Below, in pieces: positions 5,601-54,818 of a stretch of DNA of 64,000 nt. The notes below the pieces were generated by a model. That model searched no databases. It saw nothing but the letters and a program-made list of their open reading frames with translations, and was not told the origin of the DNA. Both the position numbers and the translations under genes were made by a program. This DNA comes from Azolla caroliniana (taxonomy: Eukaryota > Plantae > Polypodiophyta), in assembly GCA_043228905.1 (NCBI GenBank), contig JBHGNT010000007.1, positions 3,472,001-3,536,000 of the forward strand. Direction: 5' to 3'. Within the stretch, counting starts at the first letter, position 1. Each line of letters opens with the position of its first letter.

Positions 5601-8600
5601 ATATATTAGAATTTAACTGTTTAAAAGACTTTTTTTTATTGTTTGACTGTGCTTGTTCAGAAGAGAACAGGCGAAATTGTTGGTATGAACTTGCTATGAC
5701 TTTGATCTGCCTCTTCATTTTGACCTACCTGTCCATGAATCCATAGTACCTATAGTTTACGATTTTAGCATTTTCTTTCGAGGCTTCCTCATCTCACAAC
5801 ACACAACCCAGGGTTTTTTGCATGTATCCAAATTCAATTTGTCTTCTTGGGAAACCGCTGTAGCCACATCTGTAGCTGCGGCAGCTTAAATCTTCTTAAG
5901 TTTCTTTGATGACTTGTTGAAAGGAGATTCATTTGTCATCTGCAAATACAAAGTGCTTTTCAAACTCATACTTGTTTGAGAAACTATAATCTCACAAGTA
6001 GAAACCTTAAACTTCACTATTTTGATGTTGTTATAGGCTTCTTACCTAATGTTTAATTTGTCGGGTAGCTGTATATAATTGTTTGGAATAACAACAGAAG
6101 CAAGAAATGAGACAGAAGACATAAATGACCTCGCAATAACCAGGGAGAGAAAAAAAAAAGGCTATATTAGCAGCATGTCTGAGGTTGAGAAGCCTAGACA
6201 GGGGTTGTAGGAAACCTTGAAAAATAAGGATTTGATTGGTCTTTCATTGTCCAATTGGCATACTAAAGAGATAGAGTATATGGTGGAAATTAGATGAAAG
6301 CTGCTTAAGAACATGACTAGACTATGGGCCTTTAATGTAGGCCCCAATTGAGAGTAGTTGGCTGGCTATAAGACTCCTTAAATGGGGTGAATAAGATAGG
6401 TATACAATCCCACCTAACTCCCAAAATTGAGGAAAAGTAATTGAGTCTGGTATCCAAACCTAGCTCCACAATCAACTGAATATATAAGCAGTTAATATGG
6501 CAGGGAATATCCTTATTAGCTTGCTATTGTAGCACTTTAGCTCATTGGGTGTCAATTCTTGTAACAACTGCCCCAGTAAAAACGCAGACATTGTGCTCAG
6601 ATATACTATATAGGATAAACCACTGTGGTGGTGAATATCCTCAGGAAATGATACCAATTTTAAATTAAAGAACAGGGGCTCCCAATCTATCTGGAAAAAC
6701 TGCCTTTTTTCTGAATTCCAATGCCCAGAAGAACATGAAGATACACCTAGTCACCCTTCATAGGTGCAAGGCAAAATGGACAAAGTCTCTAACCAATATT
6801 AAAATCAAATAACAGGTGCTCCCAATCTATCAGGAAAAACTGCCGTCTTTTCTGAATTGCCCATGCCCCAGAAATGGAAGATGCATCCAGTCATCCTTCA
6901 TAGGTGCAAGCCAAAATGGACAAAGTCTGTAATGTAGTCTGGTAACTGCTGTTCACCCAATGACATTAGCACGCAATTATTGCGGCATCAATAAAGGGGA
7001 TTTTCAGATTTTCTACCACAGATAACATGTATTTATGCATATATTATATTTGTTGTATTTATGGAAAATTAAAATTTCAAAGCCACCTGTTTGTATATAA
7101 TTTGTGTTGAGTCTTCATTACATTTCCTTGGGGAAGAAATCATCATTGTCCATCAGCTTGTCCAAATGAACAAGACTTTGCACCCTAGTGCAAACTTAGG
7201 CCAACCATAATAATAAACAGAGAATCTTGGTTGGATATTCAATGCCATAAGATCAGACAAAAGAATTGTCATGCTGCAGCTTGGAATCTGTCTCCATGTA
7301 CAAAAATATCAAATAAATAAAGAAATATCACAGGGGTACCAAGGTTTGGAGTCAATTAGTTCCTGGAACTGTGTATGTTAAGGGTGAAAACTCTATTTCT
7401 GTTCTATGTTGGGGACTTATTGAAGATTGGTGTCTGATTTAAAATTAGCATAATCTCTTGAGGATGCTGCCACTTAGAGATTCCCGTTTTAGAAGACTTT
7501 GGCAGTGTTAGGACTCCATGTACAGAAATTTGAAATAAATTAAGAAATATCATTGGGGTACTGAACTGTGGAGCCAATTATTTGCTGGAATATGGTGTAG
7601 ATTAAGGCTGAAAATTATGTTTCTGTTCTATGTTGGTAGATGTAAACTTAAAAATTAGCACAGGTTGTCGAGGATGTGCCCTATTAGACATGATTATTTT
7701 ATAAGATTTTAATAGTGTTTGTGTTATATGCTTGTAAATCTAACTGAACTCAAATACCTCTCTGAGTTTCTAAAAATGCCATAAATGAAGAAAGATAAGA
7801 AATGAGAGTCAAGAATGCTAGATGAATTGCTGGTTAGTGTCCCCAAATGGTACAAGCACATTGTGGTCTGCTTCACATGTATTAGACAACCATTGTAGGG
7901 ATGCACATGGCATCCTATAGTCATGCATATGTTTATGACCATTTTGGTGTTATGCATTTTGGAACCCTTGCATGGTCAAGTTAGTTACCTCAACAGCATA
8001 TTACTGCCTGTCACACTATGGAAGCTGGACATGCTCGGAGTACTCTTATTTGGCTGGTGTTCAAGCTACTGAATTCCATTCACAGCTTTTGTACGATGCT
8101 GTTTTATGTGGATTACATTCTATGTTTAAAAATAGCAATATGGCATCTAAAAAACGAACAAAAGAAAGGAAATTTCGAAAGACGACTGATATTGAATTAT
8201 CTATTTATTTTGTTTTGTTTCTTGTATCTATCAAGGCACTAATGCACATTTTCTCATTATTATTCTAATCGACTGATCTATGATTGTCTATATCAGAAGC
8301 ACATTTGATGTATATCCTGTATACATCCATTACACTATCATTAAAAAATTAATGTGTAATGGTGTAAACTACTTATACTCTTTTGACTTTCAGTGATTTG
8401 AAGAGGAAAAAAACTCTACGTTACTGTAGAGTCTTTGAGATAATTAAAAAACAAAATAAATAATCCCTTCTGACAACATTTGAGGAATTTGGGTAACCTC
8501 AGTCTGTATATCTCATTGCCACTACGTATATTTCAGGAGTCAAGCAAATTCATATTATTCACATGTTTCTGTCTCGGTTTTAAGAGTTACTTGCTTATTA

Positions 8601-11326
8601 TAGATCAACAAAGTTGATAATATTATCAATTGACTAGCATTATTAATATTTTCTACTTTTTGTAGCCAACTCTTGTGAAAGCGAACTTGCTTGAGTTTTC
8701 AGGTTGTGTCTGGGGTGCCAATGAGGTATGAAATCTCCGAAAGATATTTATAGTAGGACTATTTAAAGACATTTATACTAGGAATATTTTCATGTAAATA
8801 GATGCACTTTCTCTCTCTCCCTCTCTCTATATCTCTCACTGCTGGAATGGTTGGAACCCTCTAAGGGAAGAGAGAGTGATAATGAGAATTTGAACACATC
8901 CTTGTTTCTGCATATGAGTTTTTATGAGGTTTTGATGGATTTCATCTGGTTTTTCAGGAAAAAGAGAAAGCTCGAATGAAAGAAAAGCTTGAGAGGTGTG
9001 TTAAAGACAGTCTTTTGCAAGTTGGTGAAATCTTGGACTTAAATTTACCAAAAACAAGTAAGAAGGTGAGAGGTGTATTCTTGTCTGGTGAGCACTGCAG
9101 TTTATTTATGTTCTAAATATTTTGACGATCATATCATTGTCTTTTCGATTTCAGGAAGATGTAGTGTTAAAAATGCTAGACTTTCTCGATTCTCCTCATT
9201 CGACAACTGATAAGCTTCTTGAAGAGAGAGAACAGGTGTGTTCTTTTGATTTCTAAAGTTGACATTTTTATTTTAAGAGTATATGTCTCTAACTTTTATT
9301 CCCTATTTGTGAGAAGTTGAAAGACAAAAGGCGTAAGAAGACACCTATCAAAGGAACAAAAAGAAAATCATCTGGAGGAACACCTCGCAAGGTACGTATT
9401 TGCTGTACCTAATCTTTGGATTGGAGTTCATAATAATAATGTATATCATATTGAAGATCTTGCTGATGATATACAATTTTTCTTTATCAGAGACAAAAAG
9501 TTGAATCCATAGATCAACCTGATGAGGATGAAGATGAAGAGGAAGAGGAGAATGACGATGACGAGGAAGGGGTTGAGGAACCTGAAGAAGAGGAGGCAAA
9601 GTTGGAGAAGAAAAAAGCTTCAAAAAGAAAATCAGTGAACGGCCCCAAAAAGGCTGTTCAGAAGAGATCTGCAAGAAAGAGTTCAAGATCGGAAGATACT
9701 GAAAGTCAAGAAGACCTAGAAGTAGAGGAGGAGGAAGAGGAGAAAGAGGACGAGGAAGAGGAAGAGGAAGAGGAAGAGGAAGAGGAAAAGGGTGAAGTAG
9801 AGGAAGAGGAAGAGGAAGAGGATGAGGAAGAGAAAGACGAAGAGCAAGAGGAAGAGCAAGAAGCAAAGGAAAAGGAGGTTGGGTATTCAAGAAGCAAGAG
9901 GTCAGCCCAAAAGCCTGCAACAAATGATGCTGAGCTAGAAGACAAATCTGATAAAGAAGAGACAGAGGGGCCAGAGGAAGAGGAAGAAGAAGCTGAAGGG
10001 GAGGATAATGATGTGGCTGAAGAGGATTCCGAAGAAAAATCACTGAAGAGAAAACAGATATCCAAGTCTGCAAGCAAAGCAAGTGATGGAAAATCTAAAA
10101 CCCCTAGAAAAGGCAGAAGTAAGCCCCTTCAAAAGAAGTCAGTCTATGATCCTGATGAAGACTTGGAAGACGAAGTAGAAAGTAAAAGCGCAAAACCCAA
10201 ATCTTTAATGAAAGTATCTAAAAAGCAAGACTTGAAAAAAGAGGGTTCCTTCACAAATAAAGACAAGAAAAAATCAGCGAAATTGTCTAAGAAAACAAGC
10301 GGAGAGGAAACTGAAAAAGAGAATAAAAGAATAAAAGAGGGGTCATCGAAGAAGGCAAAAGGTTTGGGGTTCTTTGCATAAAATCAAATTAAACATATAG
10401 TTATCAACTTATGGATAATGAATTTACCCAAACATTCATTTCCAAGCACAAACTTTTGTCATGACCTCCTATCAACAGTCGTAGGTTTCACAATCTTTTG
10501 CTTGTGCACTGAACTCATAGGCTTTCAATTATGAGATAACCTTCTTTTGTTTTTGTTTGCTGATCTGCACTGCAATTTTTTGTGTTTGGAACTATCTTTG
10601 AGCATCGACTTGCATCCTTCTTCTGTGTCCACATAACGAAGATGTACTACTGAATTGATTATGTGCAGAGGAGACTAAACCAGCCATACCTTCAGATGAT
10701 GATCTACGTTCAGCCATATGTGACCTTCTTCGTGATGCTGATTTTGGCACGGTACTAAATTGTTTGCAAAATATATATGGAACACAGCATAACATCCTTA
10801 AATTGTAGGATACTTAAAAGATTACCTCTGAGTACCAAAAACCACCAGAATACTTCTGAAGCACTTTGTCTTACTGAGGTGTTTGGAGTTAATTTTGTGA
10901 AAGACCTTGGGGGTATGCTGGTATTTTTTGGCATTTTGATCAGTATTCTTATCATTTTATTTTTCATATATTGTATTGTTGTATTTCAGATATCCTACAA
11001 TAATTTATAACTAATCATATTGGATTTATCTTTTGCCTCTCTTTTATCATGCAGGTCACTTTTACAGACGTCGTGAAGCAACTAGGTATAATGCTAAATG
11101 GCAATTACTGTGATGTGTGTCTTGAGTTGTTTTAAGTGACGCTTCTGACTTCTTTGATGATATTATAACTTTTTTGGTGTATGTGATGATTTTTCAAACA
11201 GGAGCCAAATTCAATGTTGATCTATCTCAGAACAAAGCTCATGTCAAGATCCTTATACAAGAAGAGATTAGCAAACTTGTTGACGAAGATGATGAAGTTG
11301 AGGGCGAAGAGGAAATGGATGGTTGA
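2616..11326 (+). CDS. DEK: DEK domain-containing chromatin-associated protein, 11 coding exons: 2616-2879, 3441-3474, 4095-4177, 8666-8725, 8958-9065, 9155-9235, 9314(or 9317)-9391, 9491-10361, 10669-10751, 11055-11085, 11202-11326 (~605 aa)
   Basis: GT-AG splicing keeps the frame open. The product has plant DEK motifs: 'PVTPSSERPSRERKSIERF', 'IEKGNGYCLKDIPNVVFKLSKRK', 'LLHKLIYGKR', 'KANLLEFSGCVW', 'KEKLERCVKDSL', 'KMLDFLDSPHSTTD', a long acidic E-rich tract, and a C-terminal DEK_C domain 'PSDDDLRSAICDLLRDADFGTVTFTDVVKQLGAKFNVDLSQNKAHVKILIQEEI'. Confidence 0.93.
6671..6932. repeat. Two diverged ~140-bp direct repeats in DEK intron 3
   Basis: 'aacagg.gctcccaatctatc.ggaaaaactgcc...taggtgcaag.caaaatggacaaagtct' occurs at ~6671 and ~6811. 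Confidence 0.85.
7292..7715. repeat. Two diverged ~220-bp direct repeats in DEK intron 3
   Basis: 'ctccatgtaca.aaat...aagaaatatca...ttctgttctatgttgg...aaaattagca' occurs at ~7292 and ~7514. Confidence 0.75.
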
Positions 11327-19828: not shown

Positions 19829-19882
19829 GAGCTCCACCCCACCATAGCCCACCAAATCTCCCATTTACTGTCGAAGCGTATA

Positions 19883-21274
19883 ATGGATCGGAATCCATCC
19901 TCAGAGCATCCAACCACCCCTTCCTTCCTCTCTAGCTTCCTTCAATCTTGCAAATGCTTCTCCATCCTCCGCAACGACCAGGATGATCCCGATGACGATG
20001 CCATCTCACCCTCTGCTCGTCTCTTCTACGATCCCCACCCAATCTACTCTGACGAGACGACAAAATTTACGCAGCTTCATCTCTGCAGGTTTAATGGTAT
20101 CTTTGAGGAAGAGAAGAAGAAGAAGAAGGCCATGAAAGCTTCCATTTCGTGTCATTCTCGCCGTGGCAAAGCTAGGAAGATTCTATTGGATAGTAAAGAA
20201 AGATTATTGAAGAAGAAGGAGAAGCAGAAGAAGATTGGTACAAAGGAGGGGGATCGTTTCTTACGGAATCTATGGTCTCAGAATGAGAAGGATTGTTCTA
20301 AACCTGCATGGGACATCGTGAAATCCAAGCTTTCATTAGAGAAGAAGGAATCTGACAACAATTCGAAACAACGTTGCCATATGAAGCATGAGGCCATGAG
20401 GTGCAGGGTTTTGAAGGAGATGGAAATGACAAGGAAATGTTGCTACCACGAGAATGGGGCTATTATTGGAGGTTTCATGGATGAATCAAGGGATGCATCA
20501 TGTGATTCTGCTAAGCAGAACAAGAATGGGGTTATCATTGGAGGTTTCATGGATGAATCAAGGGATGCATCATGTGATTCTGCTAAGCAGAACAAGAATG
20601 GGGTTATCATTGGAGGTTTCATGGATGAATCAAGGGATGCATCAATTGATTCTGCTAAGAAGAACAAGAATGAGGCCATTATTGGAGGTTTCATGGATCA
20701 ATCAAGGAATGTATCATGTGATTCTGCTAAGAATGGTGGCACTCAGTCATGCTCTTTGGAGGAGGAGGATCGTAGTCATCGGAGGCGTCACAAGGTGAAG
20801 CGCGGGAAATCTTCGAGAGCTTTGGGCAAGTGTGAAACGGACGCCGGACACTGGTGCACACATGATGGTGGGTTCGGAGTATCAAATCCGATGATTAGCC
20901 GGGCCGGGTGCACACATCCCGAGGAGGACCACACATATCGGGGGTTCGGATCGGACCACGAGCCCGAGCTTGGGCCGAGCCCAATGAATTGCTTGAAAAC
21001 CACTAGAGCTTGGGGGAACTGCATCCCCATGGTGAAGTATTCTTATAGAGCCTATGATGATTTCTACGAGTCCATGTGGTGTCTTGTTGTCCGAAGGCGG
21101 AGCCTCGCGAAGAAGACGGACCTTGGAGACTTGAAGGACTTGTTTGCTTGCTACCTCCTTATCAACTCCCCAATGCATCACCACCTCATCGAGGAGGCCT
21201 TCATTAACCTCTTAACCTACATTTCACTACATGCAAACAGCCCACACTCCATGGATCAACCTTCGAAGCATTAA
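19883..21274 (+). CDS. OFP: OVATE family protein (OFP), intronless, 463 aa, with an internal 24-aa repeat
   Basis: C-terminal OVATE domain: 'CIPMVKYSYRAYDDFYESMWCLVV...DLGDLKDLFACYLLINSPMHHHLIEEAFINLL' (family pattern VKxSxDPYxDFxxSM...LxCYLxLNxxxHHxxIxxAF). Confidence 0.85.
   Translation: MDRNPSSEHPTTPSFLSSFLQSCKCFSILRNDQDDPDDDAISPSARLFYDPHPIYSDETTKFTQLHLCRFNGIFEEEKKKKKAMKASISCHSRRGKARKILLDSKERLLKKKEKQKKIGTKEGDRFLRNLWSQNEKDCSKPAWDIVKSKLSLEKKESDNNSKQRCHMKHEAMRCRVLKEMEMTRKCCYHENGAIIGGFMDESRDASCDSAKQNKNGVIIGGFMDESRDASCDSAKQNKNGVIIGGFMDESRDASIDSAKKNKNEAIIGGFMDQSRNVSCDSAKNGGTQSCSLEEEDRSHRRRHKVKRGKSSRALGKCETDAGHWCTHDGGFGVSNPMISRAGCTHPEEDHTYRGFGSDHEPELGPSPMNCLKTTRAWGNCIPMVKYSYRAYDDFYESMWCLVVRRRSLAKKTDLGDLKDLFACYLLINSPMHHHLIEEAFINLLTYISLHANSPHSMDQPSKH
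20451..20735 (+). repeat. Coding minisatellite: ~4 x 72 bp (24 aa, NGVIIGGFMDESRDASCDSAKQNK)
   Basis: Units start at 20451, 20523, 20595 and 20667, all in frame within the OFP ORF. Confidence 0.95.
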
Positions 21275-24208: not shown

Positions 24209-25111
24209 TCATATAGGCATATGGAGGAGATGAGAGATGAGAGATGTGTATGCCACTTGGATGTGTGGGTGATGGTTGGGTGAATTGAGGGCCACATAGC
24301 AAGCCAACATGTCCTCCATGTCTTGGAGGTGTGTGAGCTCCATGTCCATCACCATGTCCACCATGGACATATAGAACTCCTCAATTGGCTCATATGTGAA
24401 CTTCACCTTGGTCACACTCCCACCCATCAATTCCCTCATAACCCTAATCTCATCACTCTCCTCCTCCTCCTCCTCCTCCTCCTTGCCTTCTCCCATCAAA
24501 TCCTTAACCCTAATCTTGCCCTTGTTAGTGGCTTCTTTCATCACTTGCCTAACCCTAATCACATTGTTATTGTTGGTCTCATCCTTCTTCAGTACCCTAT
24601 TCCTTATCTTCTTATTCTTTTTCTTGTTCTTGCTCTTGCTTTCGTCCATCATCATATCCCTAACCCTAATATTACCCCTTCCGCTGTCTTCCCCATCAAA
24701 CAAAACCCTAGAAGAAGCTACATTCCCTCCTCCTCTTTCCTCCTTTCCCTTGCCCGAAACCCTAAAACGCCCCCCCCTGTCAGGCTCAGGGTTCTTGAAC
24801 TCAGGCTCGCTGTGGAGAAGTGTCAGCTCGGTGATCCTCGATCGAACGTCATCGTCTGAGAAGCAGCGCCATGATCTGAGGCAGCGCAGGAAAGGATGGA
24901 AGAAGTCATGGCGGGAGTAAGAGGAAGAGGAAGAAGCAGAAGAAGTGGAAGTGGAAGTGGAAGTAGTAGAGGAGGAGAAGGAGGAAGAAGAAGAAGAAAT
25001 CAATGCCGAAGAAGAGCAGGAGAAGGATGAAGATGAAGAAGAAATTAGTACAGAGGAAGAAGAAGAAGAAGAAGAAGAAGAAGCCATGGATGAGCAGAAG
25101 GAAGCTTTCAT
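24209..25111 (-). CDS. OFP: OVATE family protein (OFP), intronless, ~300 aa from the ATG at 25111
   Basis: C-terminal OVATE domain: 'SVTKVKFTYEPIEEFYMSMVDMVMDMELTHLQDMEDMLACYVALNSPNHHPHIQVAYTSLI'. Ser-rich N-terminus. A TATA-like sequence lies at 25151-25160. The ORF-track start at 25120 is a GTG. Confidence 0.85.
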   Translation of the reverse strand: MKASFCSSMASSSSSSSSSSVLISSSSSSFSCSSSALISSSSSSFSSSTTSTSTSTSSASSSSSYSRHDFFHPFLRCLRSWRCFSDDDVRSRITELTLLHSEPEFKNPEPDRGGRFRVSGKGKEERGGGNVASSRVLFDGEDSGRGNIRVRDMMMDESKSKNKKKNKKIRNRVLKKDETNNNNVIRVRQVMKEATNKGKIRVKDLMGEGKEEEEEEEESDEIRVMRELMGGSVTKVKFTYEPIEEFYMSMVDMVMDMELTHLQDMEDMLACYVALNSPNHHPHIQVAYTSLISHLLHMPI

Positions 25112-36384: not shown

Positions 36385-37434
36385 CTACTTTACTTTGCCT
36401 TTTGACCCAGATTTCTTACCATGTTGCTTACCTGAAGGTCTTGAGAATCCACCCTTCTGACCTTTGTTCTTCGGATTCCATTTTTTCTTATTCATTCCTG
36501 TCATATTTGCCTTATGTGCTTGCCTCTCTTCTTCAACATTCAAAACACTCACAGCCTTATTCACATCCACAATTTCATGGCTACTCTGTGCCAGCAGTTT
36601 ATTTAGAACACGTTCAAATTGTAGTTTTTCTTGTTGTCCAATCCCTGAACCTTCTACAACTGGGAGGAACTTTCTATGCTTCCCAGGGTTCTTTGCAGGT
36701 TTTTCTCCATCTAATTTGCGATCAAATTTTCCACCACTTGCAGTTGCACTGCTAGCAAGACCTGCTGCGAACCCTATTTCACCTTTTCCTATCTTTCTAG
36801 GTGCTTCCTTAGTACCAGTGATAGGCAAACTTGTTGCAGCCAATTGTACAGTGCTTGGCAATGCTCCTTTGCCCCCAATCTTTGCAGACCTCTTCAGATT
36901 TTCCAATTGATTCTTCTCTTGTTTTGCAACACGGGATTTCTTTTCACTAAGCCGTTGAGCAAATGGATCTGAACCGACTTCATCTGATGCCTTTGCTTCA
37001 ATGATGGGAATGTCGTTCTCGTCCCTTACTCTCTTGTAGCCATATCGCCGCCTCCAATCATCGGTCTGTTCATCAAACTCAAGCTTGCTCCGCTTTCTCT
37101 TCTGAATCCCTTTTCTTTGAGCAAAAATCTCCCATTTGGTAGGGGGCCTAGGTTTAGGCAGAGGCTTCTCCCGAGGTAGCTGCATCAAGGGAGACGGAAG
37201 CTTCACGAGACGTCCGATCTTCTCTGGAGTGGAAGGAAGCTTGAAAAGCCTCTCAGCCAAAGCCTGAAGAGCTTTCGCTCCTCTTTCTAAGCATTCCCGT
37301 GAAATATCATCTCTGGAAGATGAACAGGTAATGGCGGTGTCGCGAGAATCAGAGACGAGAAGATTTCCTACGTCCACGAAGAAGAAGACTCCCTGTTCGT
37401 CCTCCTCCTCACGCTCAGCCTGCAAAGCTTCCAT
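36385..37434 (-). CDS. RRS1: Ribosome biogenesis regulatory protein RRS1, single exon, 349 aa
   Basis: Family motifs 'DVGNLL', '[30 protein letters not shown]', 'WRRRYGYKR', 'DPFAQR', '[12 protein letters not shown]', and a Lys-rich C-terminus. Confidence 0.95.
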
Positions 37435-37483
37435 TATTTCTTTATTTCTTTCTTCTGGCTCTGTGTCTGTGCGTCTGTGTGTT

Positions 37484-37557
37484 AAACCCTAGACTGTGTC
37501 TCTGTGTTAAACCCTAGACTGTGTCTCTGTGTCTCTGTGTCTCTGTGTTAAACCCTA
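37484..37557 (-). promoter_or_regulatory. Three telo-boxes (AAACCCTA) immediately upstream of the RRS1 ATG
   Basis: AAACCCTA at 37484, 37509 and 37550, inside 'ctgtgttaaaccctag' repeats. Telo-boxes are known in plant ribosome-biogenesis gene promoters. Confidence 0.75.
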
Positions 37558-37606: not shown

Positions 37607-37923
37607 GAACTATTCATAATTAGCCTTAACTAACTATTATTAGCAACAAACTAACACTTATTTTGCATTAGTTTGCTTAAGTAGCTACAAGCTTAAAGTT
37701 AATTATAACAATTAGGCTTCCTAATGACCCTCGAGCTCGGATTGTGAGACTATTTGTGGCCTTAATTATGGGAACTATTCATAATTAGACTTAACCAACT
37801 ATTATTAGCAGCAAACTAACATGTAGCTTAAGTAGCTACAAGCTTAAAGTTAATTATAACAATTAGGCTTCCGAATGAACTTCGAGCTCGGGTTGTGAGA
37901 CTATTTGTGGCCTTAATTATGGG
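37607..37923. repeat. ~160-bp tandem duplication in the RRS1 upstream region
   Basis: 'gaactattcataattag...cgagctcgg.ttgtgagactatttgtggccttaattatggg' occurs at ~37607 and ~37772. Confidence 0.92.
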
Positions 37924-37927
37924 ACGG

Positions 37928-38733
37928 TGTCGTGAAGAAAACCGTCCATAGGCGGAATCGGAGCACCTAGGCGTGGGAACCGGTTCTTCACGCGCGCGAG
38001 CTCCAAGTTGTACATAGAAGCGAGTTAGGAGGATAACCGGCAGGAACGGGCCCTAACACAAGTGGAGACTAAGACCGCGCGAACAGTCTTTTCGGTCGCG
38101 CGCGCGAGCGAAGGAACTGTACGAGTCGGCGGCGTAACTACGCGGACGCGTGAAGGACGGAGCGGATCCCTGTCCAAAAGGGACAGGGGAATAACGCTGA
38201 CAGGACGGCCTGCTCGTCGGGCTATAAAAAGAGGAGGAAAGAGCTGTTGCAGGTATCTCACGCGGAGAGGACGAAGTGCTGTCGGACCGTTCCTGGACGC
38301 TTCTCTCCCTGTTTCCTTCCTTCTTGAGCTCCATAGCTTTTCTGTGCAGGGTTCCGAGGAGGCTCGTGCTGTTTCGAGGAACGCCCGAGCGCTTCCGGCA
38401 GCACCTCCGACCTGCTTCCCCCCCCCCTTTTCTTTTGTGCATCGAAGCGAACAAGTATCGGCATCTGTTCGCCGGCTTGTTCGGTTGTAACCAACCTGAG
38501 CCCCATCGAGGGTTGTAGTCGTGTTAGCCATTTTTGTTAATATACATATTTAGTCGTTCGCATCTGTCTGTGTCGGTGTCTGTTCGCGTTCTCCGTGCTG
38601 GAGGGCCGTGTCCCTGTGTATCCCCGGCCCTGCGTAGCCGGTTCTCTCTCTTTCTCCTCCCTCGCTTGCTCTTTGGTTCGAGACCCCCGCGGTCCCGCCT
38701 CATATCCACACGCACTTGCGAAATATCTCGACA
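37928..38733 (+). repeat. 5' LTR (806 bp), TATA-like TATAAAA at 38223
   Basis: Matches the 3' LTR except for two visible substitutions and one poly-C indel. Confidence 0.96.
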
Positions 38734-38737
38734 TCTT

Positions 38738-38755
38738 TGGTGAACCCGACGTGAA
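38738..38755 (+). promoter_or_regulatory. Primer binding site complementary to tRNA-Trp
   Basis: TGGTGAACCCGACGTGAA is the reverse complement of the recalled plant tRNA-Trp 3' end TTCACGTCGGGTTCACCA. Confidence 0.88.
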
Positions 38756-38777
38756 AGAGGCGGCAGAAGAGCAGAAG

Positions 38778-40904
38778 ATGAGGGGGTCGGATCTCGCAGA
38801 GGCCATGGCTTCGGCCGTGGATCGGATTGTAAACGCGCGCGAGAGCACCGGTGCCCTCGACAGAGCTATTGAGGCGGTCGTCGGCACGATCGGCCGGTTC
38901 GACGGGAAGGATGCCACGAAGTATTTGGCGTCCTACGGTGCAGAGATGCTGATGCGGGACATTCCGGAAGAAAGGCGTCTTGCCGGATTTCCCCGAGTGG
39001 CGATGCCGAGCATCCATGCGGAGGTGCTCGAGGTGCGGACGGAGAGCCGTACCTGGGAGGAGTTTGAAGGTCGGCTCCTAGAGAAATACGGGCTGGACGA
39101 CGCGCTCCGGCTTTCGAAGCGAAGATTCATGGAATGGGTGGAGTCCCCGGGGAAGGGAAGAAACGCGTCGGCGCTCCTCCGGGAGTTCGAGGAAAACTTT
39201 GCGCGCCTTTCGGCGCTCGACCGAACCATCCTGGACACGAGCCGGGTCTTGCTGTTTGTCAAGTCGGTCGACGAGCGGGATCGGGAGCAAGTGGGCCTCT
39301 TGCTGGAAACCGAAGACGGGCTCACTACCGACTGGGCGGCTGTCAGGAAGGTCTGTGGCCGTTTCGACAAACGGCGAGAATGGGCGGATAACGGGGCGAC
39401 CGGGTCGGACTCGGTCGCAGCAAGGAAGCTCGAACCGGCGCCACAGGTGCGCATGGAAGAGACCTGGGAGTGGTTGGAAACCGGTTTGGCTTCGACCGGC
39501 GTAGTCAGAGGCTCAACCGGAGGAGCGGCGCTGGAGGAATTGACGAAGGCGATAAAGGACCTCCAAATCGCGCAGGCCCGAAGGGAAGGGGGCGAACCGG
39601 CTCGTGACCGACGGCCGGCGGCAGGAAACAGGTGCATGTGGTGCGATGAAGTCGGCCACATTCGGAAGGACTGCGGCGACTTCGCGGAGGCGCTGAGGAA
39701 CAGGGTGGTGTACCTGTGGGAAGGACGGGTGCATGCCAGCGACACCCGAAGGACCCTGAGCCGAAACGACGGAAAAGGTGGTATGAAAGGGTTGATGGAA
39801 GAGGCGGCGGCCCGACACGCGGAAACCGTCCACTACTCGGCGTCGGCCGGCATTCGAGTCGGGGGCGGCGAGGCCCGAAGGGAAAGCAAAGCCGGATTCT
39901 GGCCAACGATGCTGGAAGGCCTTGCCGGTGCAAGGCTTAAAGGGGAGCAATTGGACCGTGCGGAGAAACGGGTACGGGGGATGACCGGGTGGAGCGACCC
40001 GGTCGAGGAAAGGACGGGCTTCGTGGAAGCCGCTTGCCAGAACTACGAGGCTCTGGTAGAAGAGAAGCGGGTGGGGAGACCCGGGACGACCGGGCCCTCA
40101 CAACGATACGAGACCCGGTCCGGGCCACGACGGGACGAAGCCGGCGGGGCCGGTACGCAAGATAAACCGCAGAAGGGCGGGTACCGTCTGGGGACGGAGA
40201 TAGAAAGGACCACGGACTTACGGAAGGTCCTGGAGGAACGGATCCTCGACAGCAAGGTGGAGCTGTCGTTACGAGAGGTGCTGGGAATCGCCAAGAAGGA
40301 GTTCCACGACTCCATCGTGGACTTGGTGAAACGGAAGAGGCTGTCGACGGAGACAGAACCGGAAAGACCGGTGGAAGTGCGGACGACGCACCTAGACGAC
40401 ATGGCGCTGGGAGACGAGTGGGCGGAAAGCCACTATTCGAGACCACACTGGGCCCGAGCGACCACGGAAACCCCGGTGAAGATCGGCGATGTCCAGGAAC
40501 CGGTGGTAGCTTTGGTGGACCACGGATCGGAGATCAATTTGATGTCCATGGACTTCTATAAGAAGGGCAAATGGCCGATCAACACCAAGCACGGGTGGAA
40601 AATAAGGGCAGCAACGCGCGCCACCGAGGAACTGCACGGGGCCTGTCCGAATGTGCGAGTCAAGATCGGCGACGTCGAGATTGACCAGCACTTCTTCGTG
40701 CAGGAGACGTCTTCGCATCCGGTCATTCTGGGAGAGCCGTACATCACGGCGGCGCGAATGGAGACCAAAGTGCTGGACAATGGTTCGGCCTACGCGAGGG
40801 TCAAAAGCCAAGACGGGCGCCATTCGGTCTAGTTTCTGACGGTACGACCGAACCACGAACGTAACCGCGATTCCCTCGGTTCCGAAAACCGAGAGGATTT
40901 TTAG
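38778..40904 (+). CDS. gag-pro: Gag-protease ORF with an in-frame premature TAG at 40830-40832; the presumed natural stop is at 40902-40904
   Basis: CCHC knuckle 'CMWCDEVGHIRKDC'. Aspartic protease 'ALVDHGSEINLM...VILGEPY'. The frame continues past the TAG as 'FLTVRPNHERNRDSL...EDF*'. Confidence 0.85.
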
Positions 40905-40960
40905 AGAGGACTGCCAAGGCGTGGGGCCGCGACAGTCCGGATGCTCCGGGAAAACCCCAC
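40895..40960 (+). promoter_or_regulatory. Candidate programmed -1 ribosomal frameshift signal (slippery heptamer plus predicted pseudoknot)
   Basis: G_GAT_TTT at 40895-40901. The pol frame is -1 relative to gag and open from here. Stem GGACTG/CAGTCC starts 6 nt downstream, and loop GTGGGG is complementary to CCCCAC at 40955-40960. Confidence 0.7.
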
Positions 40961-43900
40961 ATCTGTACGATAAAACCGTGTACAATAGGTAGGGAATTTT
41001 GCTTCTCCGACAGCGGAGCATGTACGATGGTCGGCATCACCGGCCGAGAGAAAACAAAGACGGAGGGGAGACTTCGGGCGTGCGGAGTTCTCGGCCCTGA
41101 CGAAGGAATCAACGGAGCCGTGGAGGCAGTCTCTTTCGACGACACCTTGGGAATGCTGGGGAAGGTAGTCGAAGAAGACCTTAACGAAGACCGGACGATA
41201 CCGGTATGTTCCGAAGAAATGTACGAAGTCATCGCGGACTTCGGTCGAGGGCTCGAGTCGGAACGGACGGCCCGAGTGAGCACCAAGTACAAGACGGTGG
41301 ACCGGAAGGTGAGGCCAGTTGCGGCGCCCTTACCGGAGGGCAGTGAATCCCGGATTAAAGGGGTTGCATCGGACCCCTGCTTACGAGATCGGGCCTGCAT
41401 AGGACACACCTTCACCAACGAGACGCTCCGCGAGCTGAAGATCGGTGGGGGCAGGTTCCTACTGCCGGCGGAGGAAGACCGGTTCCGGAGAATGCTCGGA
41501 AGGCACGGGAAAGCCTTCGCATTCTCGCCGGAGGAAATCGGGTGCGTGGACCCGACGATCGTAGAGCCGATGGTGATATTCACGGTACCGCATGTACCGT
41601 GGAATCTCAAGCCAATTTCGGTTCCGAGAGCTCACATCCCGAAGTTGATGGAGCTGTTGAAGCAGAAAGTTGATATGGGCATTCTCGAGCCGTCGAGTGC
41701 CCCGTATTCAAACCGCTGGTTTACCGTGCCAAAGAAAAACGGATCATTGCGCTTCATTCAGGACCTGCAGCCGGTCAATAGAGTGACCATTCGGAACGCA
41801 GGGATCGGACCGACCATAGACGAGTTCGCGGAGGCCTTCGCCGGAAGGTCGATTTACTCGGTCGGTGATCTATACTCAGGGTACGACCAGTTCCAGCTAG
41901 CCGTGGAAAGCAGAGACATTACGACGATGCGAACTCCCCTCGGCCTAGTGCGGATGTGTACGCTGCCGCAAGGAGGGACCAACTCGGTGGCCCACATGGT
42001 GAATGCGATGAACAAGGTGCTGAGGGACTGCATCCCGGACATCACCATGCCGTTTCTAGACGACATCCCGATCAAGGGATGCCCGGTAGAAGAGAAGGAC
42101 GAGACGGTCGGGCCGGACGGATGCCGGCGATTCGTGATGGCGCACATCGACGACTGCGAGAAGGTGCTGCAAAGGCTAGAGGATGCGAGGCTCACCTTCT
42201 CGGGGGAGAAATCAGCCTTCGGATAGTCGGAAATCATGGTGGTCGGACACTTATGTGGACCATATGGCCGGAAACCGTCTCCGGCAAAGGTAGAAGCCAT
42301 CTCCGCGATGAAGCCCGACTGCAGCTCGGTCACGGAGGTACGAAGATTCCTGGGGGCATGCGCATTCTACCACATATGGATCCCGCATTACGCCCATGTT
42401 GCGGAGCCGCTATACGGATTATTGAGGAAAGGGCGAAGATTCGAATGGCTAGACAAGCACAAGGAGTCGGTCCGGAAGCTGAAGGAGGCTCTCTCGGCAG
42501 CACCGGCGCTCCGAAAGGCCGTCTACAGAAAGGGCACCCCAGTGTACATAACGGTTGACACGAGTCCGACCGGAATCGGGTGGGTCGTCAACCAAGAAGA
42601 CGAGGACGGCAATCGGTTTCCGATCCGATTCGGCGCGAAGGTCCTCAGCGAACGGCAGCGAGGATACGCCCAGGTTAAACGCGAACTCTGGGGTATCGTT
42701 TCGGCGGTGAAGGCCGACAAGGACTATCTGATCGGGACGGAGGTAATCATAGAGACGGATTGCATGCCGATTCTCGGCATGGTTTCCGGATGCGCGACGC
42801 CGGACCTGGCAATGCTCAGGTGGATAGCGTACATCAAGTCCCTAGACCCGGTAATGCGACACATTTCCGGGAAAGACAACGCCATGGCCGACATGCTTTC
42901 AAGGGCGAGATTCGATGACGAGGGCGGCATGGTTTCGGAGGATGAAGAGGTCGGCGTGGACTTCTTCGAGACTGCGTATGTAACAACCGACGGGACAAGC
43001 ACTCCGGCGCTTAACGACTTCGACGCGAGCAAGTACGACGGGGAGTGGCTGCAGATCGGTGGGTTTTTGAAGACAATGACGCCCGATGCGTCATGGACGA
43101 AGGACGAGGCCAACCGGATCCGGAAGAAAGCGTACCGGTTCTTTCTCCGGGATGGCTATCTATGGAAGCACCCGAAGAAGAGGGACGGCGCTCCGCTCCG
43201 GGTAGTGGCGATGAAGGAAGAACAGGAGGAGCTACTGATGGCTTACCACGACAGCCCTTGGGCTGGACACCGTGGAACATGGGCTACGTTTGAGAAACTG
43301 AAGGGGAAGTATTGGTGGTCGGGGCAGTACCAGGACGTGCATCGGTTCGTGACAACTTGCGAGAGCTGTCAGATGCACTCCATAGTCCGACATCGAGACG
43401 AGCTTCACCCTACGTACCCTCCGGCCATCCATTTCAAATGGATGGTAGATCTGGTAACGATGCCAATGGGAGTAGGACAGATGCGGTACCTGGTCCTAGC
43501 GCGGGAGGATCTGACGAACCAGGTGGAAGGCCGGGCCCTTCCGAACAAAACGACCGCGGCCGTGTGTCGGTTCCTAATCGAGGACGTGGTATGCCGGTAC
43601 GGGTGCGTCGGGAAGATCGTGGCTGACCGAGGGGAGTTGGACGCCGAAGAAGCCGCGGAGCTGTTCGACCGGCTGGGAGTCAAGCTCTCGCTCACCACTG
43701 CGTACAATCCGGAGGCGAATGGAAAGGTGGAGCGCGGACACGGACCGATCGTCAAGGCGTTGGTTCGGGCATGCGGAGGCCGAGTCGGTAACTGGCCGCG
43801 GCTGCTACCTTATGCTTTGTGGGCAGACCGGACCACGCACAGTTCGGTAACCGGGTACATGCCGACGGAGCTCATGTTCGGCCAGAAGCCGATCATGCCG

Positions 43901-44461
43901 ATGGAACGGACGATCTCCTCATGGGCAACGGTCGATTGGAGGGACGAGATGAGCCGGGAGGAGTTGTTGGCCGCGCGTATACGACAACTCGAGCGGAGAC
44001 CGGAGGACGTGGAACTGGCTACGGAGAAGCTCCAGGTGGCGAGGACAAAGAACAAAGCCAGGTTCGACCGAATACACCGGCTCCGACCGAAGAAAATCGA
44101 AGAAGGTGACTGGGTGCTCGTCTACGACAGCAGCCTCGACAACCAGCACCGAGCCACACGGAAGTTCGCACGAAGGTGGTTCGGGCCTTACGTGGTACGG
44201 AGCGCCAATGACAACGGGACATATCACCTGGCGGAACTCGACGGCACGAGAGTGGCGATACCGGTTGCAGGGAAGCGGATCAAAGCGTTCAAGAAGCGAC
44301 ACGACGACGAGCCAGACCCGGCTCTTCTAGTCAGCAGTGACGAACGATCCGAAAACGAGGAAGAACCGGCGGGCGAGGAACGAAGACAGGCCGGTTTTCT
44401 CCGTCCCAACTCTCTGGCGCATACCGGAGGATGCGCGGTTAGGTGGGGGCGGATGTCGTGA
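40895..44461 (+). CDS. pol: Pol (RT, RNase H, integrase), interrupted by one in-frame TAG at 42224-42226
   Basis: RT 'DLYSGYDQ...LPQG...FLDD'. RNase H 'VDTSPTGIG...ELWGIV...ETDC...NAMADMLSR'. Integrase 'HDSPWAGH...CESC', 'VDL...ADRGE...NGKVERGH', 'WFGPY'. ORFs 41027..42226 and 42236..44461 share one frame. Confidence 0.93.
44441..44453 (+). promoter_or_regulatory. Polypurine tract
   Basis: AGGTGGGGGCGGA lies directly before the 3' LTR. Confidence 0.75.
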
Positions 44462-45260
44462 AGAAAACCGTCCATAGGCGGAATCGGAGCACCTAGGCGT
44501 GGGAACCGGTTCTTCACGCGCGCGAGCTCCAAGTTGTACATAGAAGCGAGTTAGGAGGATAACCGGCAGGAACGGGCCCTAACACAAGTGGAGACTAAGA
44601 CCGCGCGAACAGTCTTTTCGGTCGCGCGCGCGAGCGAAGGAACTGTACGAGTCGGCGGCGTAACTACGCGGACGCGTGAAGGACGGAGCGGATCCCTGTC
44701 CAAAAGGGACAGGGGAATAACGCTGACAGGACGGCCTGCTCGTCGGGCTATAAAAAGAGGAGGAAAGAGCTGTTGCAGGTATCTCACGCAGAGAGGACGA
44801 AGTGCTGTCGGACCGTTCCTGGACGCTTCTCTCCCTGTTTCCTTCCTTCTTGAGCTCCATAGCTTTTCTGTGCAGGGTTCCGAGGAGGCTCGTGCTGTTT
44901 CGAGGAATGCCCGAGCGCTTCCGGCAGCACCTCCGACCTGCTTCCCCCCCCCCCTTTTCTTTTGTGCATCGAAGCGAACAAGTATCGGCATCTGTTCGCC
45001 GGCTTGTTCGGTTGTAACCAACCTGAGCCCCATCGAGGGTTGTAGTCGTGTTAGCCATTTTTGTTAATATACATATTTAGTCGTTCGCATCTGTCTGTGT
45101 CGGTGTCTGTTCGCGTTCTCCGTGCTGGAGGGCCGTGTCCCTGTGTATCCCCGGCCCTGCGTAGCCGGTTCTCTCTCTTTCTCCTCCCTCGCTTGCTCTT
45201 TGGTTCGAGACCCCCGCGGTCCCGCCTCATATCCACACGCACTTGCGAAATATCTCGACA
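44454..45260 (+). repeat. 3' LTR (807 bp)
   Basis: Starts TGTCGTGAAG, ends TCTCGACA, followed by the TSD ACGG. Confidence 0.96.
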
Positions 45261-45359
45261 ACGGTAGTGGAATATAATTCATCAACCCCTACAATGCATG
45301 TGCCCGCTCATCAAAAGCTCCCCGTTACTACCTTATGTTCATCGACAACCCCTTCAATA

Positions 45360-52900: not shown

Positions 52901-53165
52901 AAGTGAACTCATACCATTTAGATCTGTGAGAAGTGAATGTGAAACACTTCTTCTTCTTCTCCTCTCCTCCTCCTCCTCCTTCTATAGCTAAAGATTGTTA
53001 TTGTTTTGGTTCTTTGCTTTTTGCCTTTCTTCTTCCTTCTGGTTGTTGTGAAGTCTCGAGTCTGATACCCACTGATTTTTAGTACCTATTTAAAGAAGAA
53101 CTAAGTATCTAGAAAACAGAGGTAGAGACAATTAGTCACTCACTCCTTCTATTTCCACATATACC

Positions 53166-53475
53166 ATGCTTCCTCTTCAAAGATTCAATGCTAACCTTCT
53201 CTTATTATATACCTTCTTCTTCTTCTTCTTCTCCACTACCATATCACTGGCTCAATCCAACAATGGCCACCAAATATATGCCCAGAACAATGATGTATCC
53301 GACCAGCCGAGACAACAATTAGCTCGGCTCCCATTACGGCATATCAGCTCGATGCCGTCACATTCACACCTAAGCCGATCGGCCCTCATCCAAGAGTTGC
53401 GCCTCTCGGATGAGGCCCGGTTCCATACCATGGTGTCGTCCCGCCTCAAATTCTATAGAGCTTCCATGGCTACTA

Positions 53476-53509
<34 letters not shown>

Positions 53510-54818
53510 TTCTTCACCGGCCTCTGGCCTCCAAACTGCCGTGACTTCGGGCGCGTCGGTAGGAGCTGGACAATACTTTGTGGAGTTTGCACTAGGGACC
53601 CCACCCCAGAAGCTCATGTTGATCGCCGACACGGGTAGCGACCTAATCTGGGCCCGATGCTCCCTATGCAAGACAAGCTGCACTGGGCCGAGCTCGAGCC
53701 CTAGTAACAACAATGATACCTCATCGGTTAGTTTGACCACTACTTTCATTGCGCGCGCCTCGTCCACCTATCGCCCCATCCCTTGCCTCTCTCAAGATTG
53801 CCTCCTCGTGCCCGCCCCACCGAACTTCTCGTGCAATATCCGCATCCCGGGGGGCAGCACATGCTCCTATGACTACTCCTACTCCGACACGTCCGAGAGC
53901 ATCGGGGTCTTCTCGCGTGACTCGGTATCTCTCGGTTTTTCGTCCGAGAGCTCACCACTAGGAGGAGGAAATCCATCAACCAAACCTCCTCCGTCTTCTT
54001 CGGGCAATGGCGGGCTTGTCAAGGTGTTGCCGGGCATTGCATTCGGGTGCGGGCTACACAACCGGGGCCAGAGCTTTGTCGGCTCCGACGGTGTTCTCGG
54101 CCTCGGGAGAGGCCCCATCTCCTTGGTCACTCAAGTCGGGACCGAATTCTCGTATTGCCTCGTCGATTTCTTCAAGGTCCCGGCTCGAGAGAGCTATCTA
54201 ACGATCGGGGCTGGCGGCTCCTCCGTAGCACTACCACCACTACCGAATGCGTCTTCCCTTTCTTTACAATACACTCCAATGTTGCAAAATCCGTTCGCCC
54301 AGACCCCATACTATATTGGCATAGAGGGTGTCCGCGTAGACGGGAAGCTTCTCTCCATCCCGGCCGAGGTCTGGCGGATCGATCCAGCGGGTAACGGGGG
54401 CACGATCCTCGACTCGGGCACCACGCTCTCGGCTTTCTTGCAGCCCGCGTACGCCCCGATCTTGGCCGCCATGTCCGAGAGCCTGGCCGTGTCCAAGCTC
54501 CCCAGGCTCGCCCCGCCCGCCCAAGGTTTCGACCTATGCGTCAATGCCACCGGGATCGAGCAAGGTGTCTTGTCCGAAAGGCTTCCCAAGCTCTCCATCG
54601 CGATGTCCGGGGGTGCCACGTTCGACCCCCCGCCCAATGGGAATGTTTTCATTAGTGTGGACCCAAGTGCCGAGATCAAGTGCTTGGGGTTACGGGGTAT
54701 CCAATCGACCGTCGGGTTCTCGGTCCTCGGAAACCTCATTCAACAAAACTTCATGTTCGTGTTCGACAACCAGAATTCCCGGCTCGGGTTTGCGGGCCCG
54801 ACCGATTGCCATTCATGA
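53166..54818 (+). CDS. Secreted A1-family aspartic protease (nepenthesin-like, TAXi_N/TAXi_C), single exon, 550 aa
   Basis: Hydrophobic signal peptide, 'GQYFVEFALGTPPQ', catalytic motifs 'ADTGSDLIW' and 'ILDSGTT', a Cys-rich insert, 'AFGCG', and 'VLGNLIQQNFMFVFD'. Confidence 0.95.

What the first reader, a model, noticed from the sequence alone, without database searches (positions are those of the whole stretch)
40890..40965. Candidate virus-like -1 frameshift cassette (slippery heptamer + pseudoknot) between gag-protease and pol in a plant Gypsy element
Seen: the gag-PR frame ends ...GAG GAT TTT TAG (stop 40902-40904). The pol frame is -1 and runs open from GGA TTT TTA GAG into the RT-containing ORF. 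G_GAT_TTT (40895-40901) is followed after a 6-nt spacer by stem 1, GGACTG(40908-13)/CAGTCC(40933-38). Its loop GTGGGG (40921-26) can pair with CCCCAC (40955-60) as stem 2. A third hairpin, CCGGA-TGC-TCCGG (40937-49), lies between them and overlaps stem 1 by 2 nt. Established: G_GAU_UUU is a known -1 slip site in some plant RNA viruses, and a 5-9 nt spacer followed by a pseudoknot is the canonical layout. Many plant Gypsy elements instead use a single gag-pol ORF. Inference: this family sets the Gag-PR to Pol ratio by pseudoknot-stimulated recoding, with the shift placed after the protease.
Basis: partly seen in the sequence, partly recalled or inferred. Interest (0 to 1): 0.85.

Follow-up and report, generated by a model that had tools for sequence, protein, structure and literature searches.

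The report
Moss-type retrotransposon frameshift switch with pseudoknot
A family of plant jumping genes keeps a conserved slippery sequence and a predicted RNA knot that likely make ribosomes slip back one letter to produce the copying enzymes, and a sister family in the same genome has a re-tuned signal that likely slips back two.

Summary
The element is a 7.3-kb Ty3/gypsy retrotransposon with the hallmarks of the Phygy lineage (4-bp NCGN target duplication, tRNA-Trp primer). Pol lies in the -1 frame of gag-protease in 116 of 121 informative loci. In 30 diverged families the heptamer, 6-nt spacer and stem 1 keep their positions. Stem 1 shows 50 two-sided changes (0/500 shuffles), and stem 2 re-pairs with changed letters. 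The third hairpin is limited to the window's subclade. This copy is itself broken by two stops. A sister clade nested among the -1 families (97 exact motif matches in this genome; two copies with identical LTRs and open ORFs) has pol in the -2/+1 frame. It carries G_GUU_UUU, the arterivirus -2 site, and a spacer one base shorter, so a natural -1 to -2 switch is likely. No frameshift product was measured. REXdb lists Phygy's coding layout as undetermined, and my open-access searches found no description of this signal.

The parts
37924..37927 (+). 4-bp target site duplication (NCGN type), left copy; the right copy is 45261-45264
   Evidence: 11 of 12 other copies with resolved termini also have an exact 4-bp NCGN duplication
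37928..38733 (+). 5' LTR (TG...CA)
   Evidence: two substitutions and one 1-nt indel against the 3' LTR, so a young insertion
38738..38755 (+). Primer binding site complementary to the 3' end of tRNA-Trp
   Evidence: the complementary stretch lies in the host's own tRNA-Trp(CCA) genes (3 of 3 loci checked)
38778..40904 (+). ORF1, gag-protease: CCHC knuckle 39633-39674, DUF4100, protease-like DHG motif 40518-40526; broken in this copy by a stop at 40830-40832
   Evidence: named relatives carry the aspartic-protease Pfams PF13650/PF13975; the protease call for this copy rests on motif and relatives, with no Pfam protease hit
40895..40901 (+). Slippery heptamer G_GAU_UUU, in frame at the end of ORF1
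   Evidence: G_GAT_TTT/C in 113 of 121 informative loci
40902..40907 (+). ORF1 stop codon plus three bases, together the 6-nt spacer
   Evidence: stem 1 starts at the same alignment column across the families
40908..40938 (+). Pseudoknot stem 1 (40908-15 with 40931-38; 7 of 8 pairs here) enclosing the 5' strand of stem 2
40921..40960 (+). Pseudoknot stem 2 (40921-26 with 40955-60)
40937..40949 (+). Third hairpin, limited to the window's subclade; competes with the two bottom pairs of stem 1
40865..44461 (+). ORF2, pol (RT, RNase H, integrase; no chromodomain or extra RNase H hit) in the -1 frame; broken in this copy by a stop at 42224-42226
44439..44453 (+). Purine-rich tract next to the 3' LTR
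44454..45260 (+). 3' LTR

Best explanation
The site is a conserved slippery heptamer, 6-nt spacer and predicted H-type pseudoknot at the gag-protease/pol junction of a Phygy-like Ty3/gypsy lineage, and it likely drives programmed -1 ribosomal frameshifting in intact copies. Shown: the frames, the position of the heptamer just before or shortly before the ORF1 stop, and conservation with compensatory change of stem 1. Inferred: the RNA folds as the pseudoknot, ribosomes pause with GAU/UUU in the P/A sites, and a minority slip back one base to make Gag-PR-RT-RH-IN while the rest stop with Gag-PR. Protease would therefore be made at Gag levels and only RT-RH-IN rationed. A nested sister clade has changed the heptamer to G_GUU_UUU, shortened the spacer to 5 nt and moved pol to the -2/+1 frame; it likely shifts -2.
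For: Frame: -1 in 116 of 121 loci holding both protease and RT. The cassette head has 3585 exact matches in this genome against 2 for the reversed control. In 30 non-redundant families (RT identity 65-100%) a sequence-only alignment is almost gap-free through stem 1. Stem 1: 81.8% of cells pair, 50 cells changed on both sides (shuffles 19.8, 0/500), slid registers 30-42% paired. Pseudoknot score: p<=0.05 in 30 of 30 against shuffles and 29 of 30 against other windows. Stem 2: own-loop/own-tail score 16.0 against 13.1 for swapped partners, 0/10000 permutations; changed but paired letters in L044, L052, L072, L083, L086, L093, L094. Pol frame is open from the slip site to RT in 29 of 30 while each other frame holds 3-24 stops, and the first in-frame ATG lies anywhere from codon 3 to 111. 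62 of 120 gag-PR relatives end exactly in Asp-Phe, the zero-frame reading of the heptamer; 24 more have DF/GF 4-5 residues before the end. Atkins 2016 (PMC5009743, passages) gives G_GAU_UUU as the pea enation mosaic umbravirus shift site and 5-9 nt as the usual spacer.
Against: No frameshift product, ribosome profile or structure probing was available. G_GAU needs a non-standard P-site re-pairing (GAU to GGA), so efficiency may be low. The nested-fold z-score is only -0.78, and stem 2 plus the third hairpin forms a competing nested fold (-15.3 kcal/mol) in this subfamily. In the stem-2 swap test the own tail was best or tied in only 5 of 30, because many families share G4/C4 strands. Neither shuffle control removes relatedness, and 'pairs with a two-sided change' was not significant (131/500). 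The site in each family was picked as the best-scoring of several candidate heptamers, which inflates somewhat. Most metagenome loci come from one series of assemblies, and their hosts are not given.
Confidence: 0.9

Rival explanations
1. Pol is reached by splicing of the region between protease and RT, as in Ogre elements, and the structure has another role.
For: [quoted passage not shown]
Against: The ORFs overlap rather than being separated. The 115-152 codons between the slip site and RT are stop-free in the pol frame in 29 of 30 families but not in the other frames, which an intron would not need. A splice would not explain a heptamer fixed 6 nt before the stem.
Confidence: 0.04
2. Pol is translated separately by re-initiation or internal initiation after the ORF1 stop; the pseudoknot serves packaging, dimerisation or initiation.
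For: The stop codon sits directly before the structure, and every family has some in-frame ATG upstream of RT.
Against: The first ATG ranges from codon 3 to 111 after the site with no conserved position. The stop can move up to several codons (L071, L086, L092, L095) while the heptamer-to-stem distance stays fixed.
Confidence: 0.03
3. Polymerase slippage on the T run adds a base and restores the frame at the RNA level.
For: There is a T5 run at 40897... 40898-40902 in the window.
Against: The run is short, and 5 metagenome loci have G_GAT_TTC with a still shorter run and the same frames and stems.
Confidence: 0.02
4. For the sister clade only: the shift is +1 (for example at UUU_G or UUU_U with the pseudoknot close behind, as in antizyme) rather than -2.
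For: +1 and -2 give the same frame. Two related copies (L191, L199) carry A_GAU_UUU, which fits a tandem -2 slip badly, and one of them has pol open in that frame. Atkins 2016 notes a 3-nt spacer for antizyme +1 shifting.
Against: 71 of 74 copies found with that codon left free have GUU_UUU, which allows perfect A-site re-pairing at -2. Most copies have G after UUU, a poor +1 re-pairing. The heptamer equals the PRRSV -2/-1 site, and -2 is favoured by a spacer 1-2 nt shorter (PMC3458567, abstract). The two odd copies could have been moved in trans.
Confidence: 0.3

Closest known systems
Phygy lineage of non-chromovirus Ty3/gypsy elements (REXdb; Neumann et al. 2019, PMC6317226)
   Same: 4-bp NCGN target duplication, tRNA-Trp primer site, no extra domain detected, compact internal region; Physcomitrium patens proteins are among the gag-PR relatives.
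   Different: REXdb gives Phygy's coding organisation as 'ND'; here it resolves to GAG-PROT overlapping RT-RH-INT in -1, a layout listed for no lineage in that table. The element is 7333 bp, below the listed 7656-9968 range. No tree with REXdb reference sequences was built.
-1 frameshift signal of pea enation mosaic virus RNA 2 (umbravirus)
   Same: Same heptamer G_GAU_UUU with a zero-frame stop close behind (PMC5009743, passage).
   Different: The viral stimulator is a stem-loop that pairs with a distant 3' loop; here it is a local H-type pseudoknot, in a retrotransposon.
-1 gag/pol frameshifting of animal LTR elements, retroviruses and PEG10/PNMA3
   Same: Heptamer, 5-9-nt spacer and pseudoknot rationing Pol.
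   Different: The shift lies after the protease. In the 2003 survey as summarised by Atkins 2016, the only plant elements with split frames had pol in +1. REXdb lists overlapping GAG:o:PROT ORFs for Tcn1 and Selgy without giving the direction.
Arterivirus (PRRSV) nsp2 -2/-1 frameshift site
   Same: The sister clade has the same heptamer, G_GUU_UUU, and its downstream ORF is in the -2 frame.
   Different: PRRSV uses a protein complex on a C-rich motif 10-11 nt downstream and no RNA structure; the sister clade has a pseudoknot 5 nt downstream, inherited from -1 ancestors.
Ogre and Retand elements
   Same: Expression boundary between protease and RT.
   Different: They use an intron-containing gap or an in-frame stop, not overlapping frames; they have an extra RNase H and 5-bp duplications.

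Membership tests
Phygy lineage | 4-bp NCGN target site duplication | tested here: met
   window and 11 of 12 copies with resolved termini, out of 20 fetched
Phygy lineage | tRNA-Trp primer binding site | tested here: met
Phygy lineage | GAG-PROT-RT-RH-INT order without chromodomain or extra RNase H | tested here: met
   Pfam scan
Phygy lineage | Length 7656-9968 bp (range in P. patens) | tested here: inconclusive
   window 7333 bp and its family about 7.3 kb, below the range; sister families 7.8-7.9 kb, inside it
Phygy lineage | RT/RH/INT tree placement with REXdb references | not tested
   no REXdb reference sequences were in hand; P. patens gag-PR relatives at 45-66% identity are only a lead
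Canonical -1 PRF signal | Heptamer X_XXY_YYZ or a known tolerated variant, in the zero frame and within the ORF overlap | tested here: met
   G_GAU_UUU is not strict XXX but is a documented viral site; A_AAU_UUU occurs in L093
Canonical -1 PRF signal | Stimulatory structure 5-9 nt downstream | tested here: met
   predicted and covarying; not probed physically
Canonical -1 PRF signal | Downstream ORF in -1, open from the heptamer | tested here: met
Canonical -1 PRF signal | Measured -1 product that depends on heptamer and structure | not testable with these tools
   needs a reporter assay or ribosome profiling
Arterivirus-type -2 PRF (sister clade) | G_GUU_UUU heptamer with the ORF in the -2 frame | tested here: met
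Arterivirus-type -2 PRF (sister clade) | C-rich protein-binding motif 10-11 nt downstream instead of an RNA structure | tested here: not met
   a pseudoknot occupies that place; it may work like a -2 site but is not a member
Rfam frameshift-element families | Match to a curated covariance model | tested here: not met
   0 matches at E<=10 for 40800-41050

The most novel reading that the evidence does not exclude
A seedless-plant retrotransposon lineage rations Pol with a virus-type pseudoknot frameshift placed after the protease, and one nested, recently active clade has switched the same device from -1 to -2 by one change in the heptamer and one base less of spacer: a natural, pseudoknot-driven -2 frameshift sitting beside its -1 relatives in one genome.
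Probability: 0.6. Interest if true: 0.85.

Novelty: new variant of a known kind. Interest (0 to 1): 0.74.

Why it matters
It gives a concrete mechanism for a coding layout that the reference classification left undetermined, in a family with thousands of copies in this genome. It also gives gene predictors the reason these loci are mis-modelled as spliced genes. Plant LTR elements were known to ration Pol mostly by splicing or from single ORFs; this is a pseudoknot -1 signal with about 30 natural structural variants ready to assay. The -1/-2 sister pair is a natural test of the mRNA-tension model, which predicts that a 1-2-nt shorter spacer favours -2 and was derived from engineered constructs.

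Tried and rejected
Private indel: rejected. Third hairpin as a general part: rejected; among 30 families only the window's and L034 have the full 5-bp hairpin and L036 a 4-bp one. It is kept in all 9 metagenome loci with RT >=85% plus L107, with one compensated pair in L034. Nested MFE folding was uninformative. Rfam: no match. Viral contigs: 51 pattern hits, none a relative. Expression: no RNA holder listed. Contigs of four runs of guessed or unknown type cover the stretch, and no listed joint skips the junction, but library types are not on record, so this is not used for or against splicing. Earlier scan findings: none. Rows dropped: 19 of 140 loci lacked a protease upstream of RT; of 33 clusters, L033, L066 and L107 (broken copies) were left out, and L102 had no candidate site; the site in L093 was moved by one codon by hand to the heptamer next to its stop. 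The 2003 survey of gag/pol recoding in LTR elements could not be opened and is cited only through Atkins 2016. Literature searches for a prior description were read as listings and showed none; subscription journals, Repbase reports and bioRxiv supplements were not visible, so priority is not established.
Full report
Observation. The site lies in a GC-rich, 7333-bp LTR element (37928-45260) in a land-plant genome; neighbouring genes include Ovate, an aspartic protease of the TAXi type and RRS1. The LTRs differ by two substitutions and one indel. ORF1 (38778-40904) has a CCHC knuckle, DUF4100 and a protease-like motif; ORF2 (40865-44461) has RT, RNase H and integrase and lies in the -1 frame. 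This copy has a stop at 40830 in ORF1 and one at 42224 in ORF2, so it cannot itself use the site.

What the element is. The target duplication is 4 bp of NCGN type in the window and in 11 of 12 other copies whose termini resolved, out of 20 fetched. The primer site is complementary to the host's tRNA-Trp. REXdb gives exactly these two traits for Phygy and lists Phygy's coding organisation as not determined (PMC6317226: passages and supplementary table read). Named relatives come from Physcomitrium patens, Riccia and Adiantum. Tree placement against REXdb references was not tested.

Is the frame break a family trait? All 30 close copies fetched (the window included; the best of 40 scored among 2450 candidates, so chosen for similarity) keep heptamer and stop with no indel in 40880-40975; 27 of 30 have ORF1 open to 40902. 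Of 140 loci from three searches, 121 hold both protease and RT: pol is in -1 in 116, in +1/-2 in 3 and in frame in 2. Both in-frame cases and one +1 case are damaged copies (L030, L107, L066); the other two +1/-2 cases are treated below. The cassette head has 3585 exact matches in this genome against 2 for the control. Of 120 gag-PR relatives, 62 end in Asp-Phe, the zero-frame reading of the heptamer, and 24 more have DF/GF 4-5 residues before the end.

Is the structure real? Cassettes were clustered at 85% into 33 groups and 30 intact ones used (RT identity 65-100%). A sequence-only alignment puts stem 1 at columns 14-21 and 37-44 almost without gaps. Over 11 pairs, 81.8% of cells pair and 50 change on both sides (shuffles 19.8; 0/500), while slid registers pair 30-42%; the count of pairs with a two-sided change was not significant (131/500). 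A simple pseudoknot score beats dinucleotide shuffles at p<=0.05 in 30 of 30 and other windows of the same locus in 29 of 30; the site was chosen as the best of several candidate heptamers, which inflates this somewhat. Stem 2 does not align in register because loop 3 varies, so loops and tails were swapped between families: own 16.0, swapped 13.1, 0/10000 permutations, but own was best or tied in only 5 of 30 because many share G4/C4 strands. Families with different letters still pair (L044, L052, L072, L083, L086, L093, L094). These controls do not remove relatedness. The third hairpin is confined to the window's subclade, where it offers a competing nested fold with stem 2.

Mechanism. From the heptamer to RT (115-152 codons) the pol frame is stop-free in 29 of 30 families, the other frames hold 3-24 stops each, and no ATG position is conserved. 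That argues against an intron and against re-initiation. The heptamer-to-stem distance is fixed while the stop can move. G_GAU_UUU is the pea enation mosaic umbravirus shift site, and 5-9 nt is the usual spacer (PMC5009743, passages). The best reading is pseudoknot-stimulated -1 frameshifting that yields Gag-PR in excess and Gag-PR-Pol as a minority (confidence 0.9). Folding, pausing and slippage are inferred, not measured.

The sister clade. L080 and L081 carry G_GTT_TTT, stem 1 five bases downstream, a -1 frame that closes after 2 and 7 codons, and a -2/+1 frame open for 1154 and 1101 codons. This genome has 97 exact matches to that motif, control 0. RT is in +1/-2 in 17 of 20 of them, and in 27 of 29 usable loci among 30 chosen by 501-nt similarity rather than by motif. 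Two copies have 100% identical 1087-bp LTRs with both ORFs open, so the layout accompanied recent transposition. The three representatives form one branch (100/100) inside a supported group otherwise made of -1 families (midpoint root, no one-clade test run). G_GUU_UUU is the PRRSV -2/-1 site (bioRxiv 2021.11.17.468997, passage). It allows perfect A-site re-pairing at -2, which GAU_UUU does not (sequence logic), and -2 was optimal at spacers 1-2 nt shorter than -1 (PMC3458567, abstract). With that codon left free, 71 of 74 copies have GUU_UUU, 2 have GAU_UUU and 1 GUG_UUU. The two GAU copies are each other's close kin, which counts against a strict -2 need unless they moved in trans. A +1 shift remains possible (0.3).

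Comparison and novelty. -1 frameshifting by heptamer and pseudoknot is well known. As summarised by Atkins 2016, the 2003 survey found plant elements with split frames only in +1; a 2025 review names frameshifting for plants, animals and yeast in one general sentence and details only splicing for plants (PMC12786077, passages). REXdb has overlapping ORFs for Tcn1 and Selgy, but before the protease. No Rfam family matches. Nine searches of the open library (listings) showed no description of this signal; closed journals and repeat-database reports were not seen. Verdict: a real, lineage-wide recoding signal, a new variant of a known kind, with a likely natural -1 to -2 switch as its most surprising part. 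Interest 0.74.

Noticed in passing
L080:2836, L081:2498, L141-L160, L169-L176, L184-L213: Sister clade with G_GTT_TTT, a 5-nt spacer and pol in the -2/+1 frame; 97 motif matches in this genome, some with identical LTRs.
   Followed up: yes
L191, L199: Two related copies of the sister clade have A_GAT_TTT at the site while keeping the 5-nt spacer.
   Followed up: partly
window 40518-40526: The protease-like motif reads DHG rather than the usual D-T/S-G (usual motif recalled); a similar DxG motif recurs in the Riccia relatives.
   Followed up: no
proteins P0019-P0120 named from Riccia; P0123-P0231 from Physcomitrium and Adiantum: Public gene models join protease to RT at varying points across this junction, which looks like predicted introns standing in for the frame change.
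   Followed up: no
L092:1569, L093:529, L094:1467, L077:2766: Natural heptamer variants in the -1 families (G_GGU_UUU, A_AAU_UUU, G_AAU_UUU, G_GAU_UUC), all with intact pseudoknots.
   Followed up: partly
window 44454-44461: In this copy the pol stop codon lies inside the 3' LTR; other copies fetched end pol slightly earlier.
   Followed up: no
G000 C5:10.10-10.11 Mb, C8:17.80-17.82 Mb, C16:4.99-5.11 Mb: Clusters of matches to the tRNA-Trp 3' end spaced about 0.9-1.3 kb apart, possibly tandem tRNA arrays.
   Followed up: no
window 9470-10381 and 24890-25100: Two related Glu-rich low-complexity stretches with 9-12-nt periodicity; no Pfam hit for the first.
   Followed up: no
window 19829-21274, 36385-37488, 53136-54818: Host genes: Ovate family protein with a 72-nt triple repeat, RRS1 about 440 bp from the 5' LTR, and a TAXi-type aspartic protease.
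   Followed up: no
window 37675-37773 and 37826-37924: A 99-nt direct repeat (96% alike) ends right at the insertion site.
   Followed up: no
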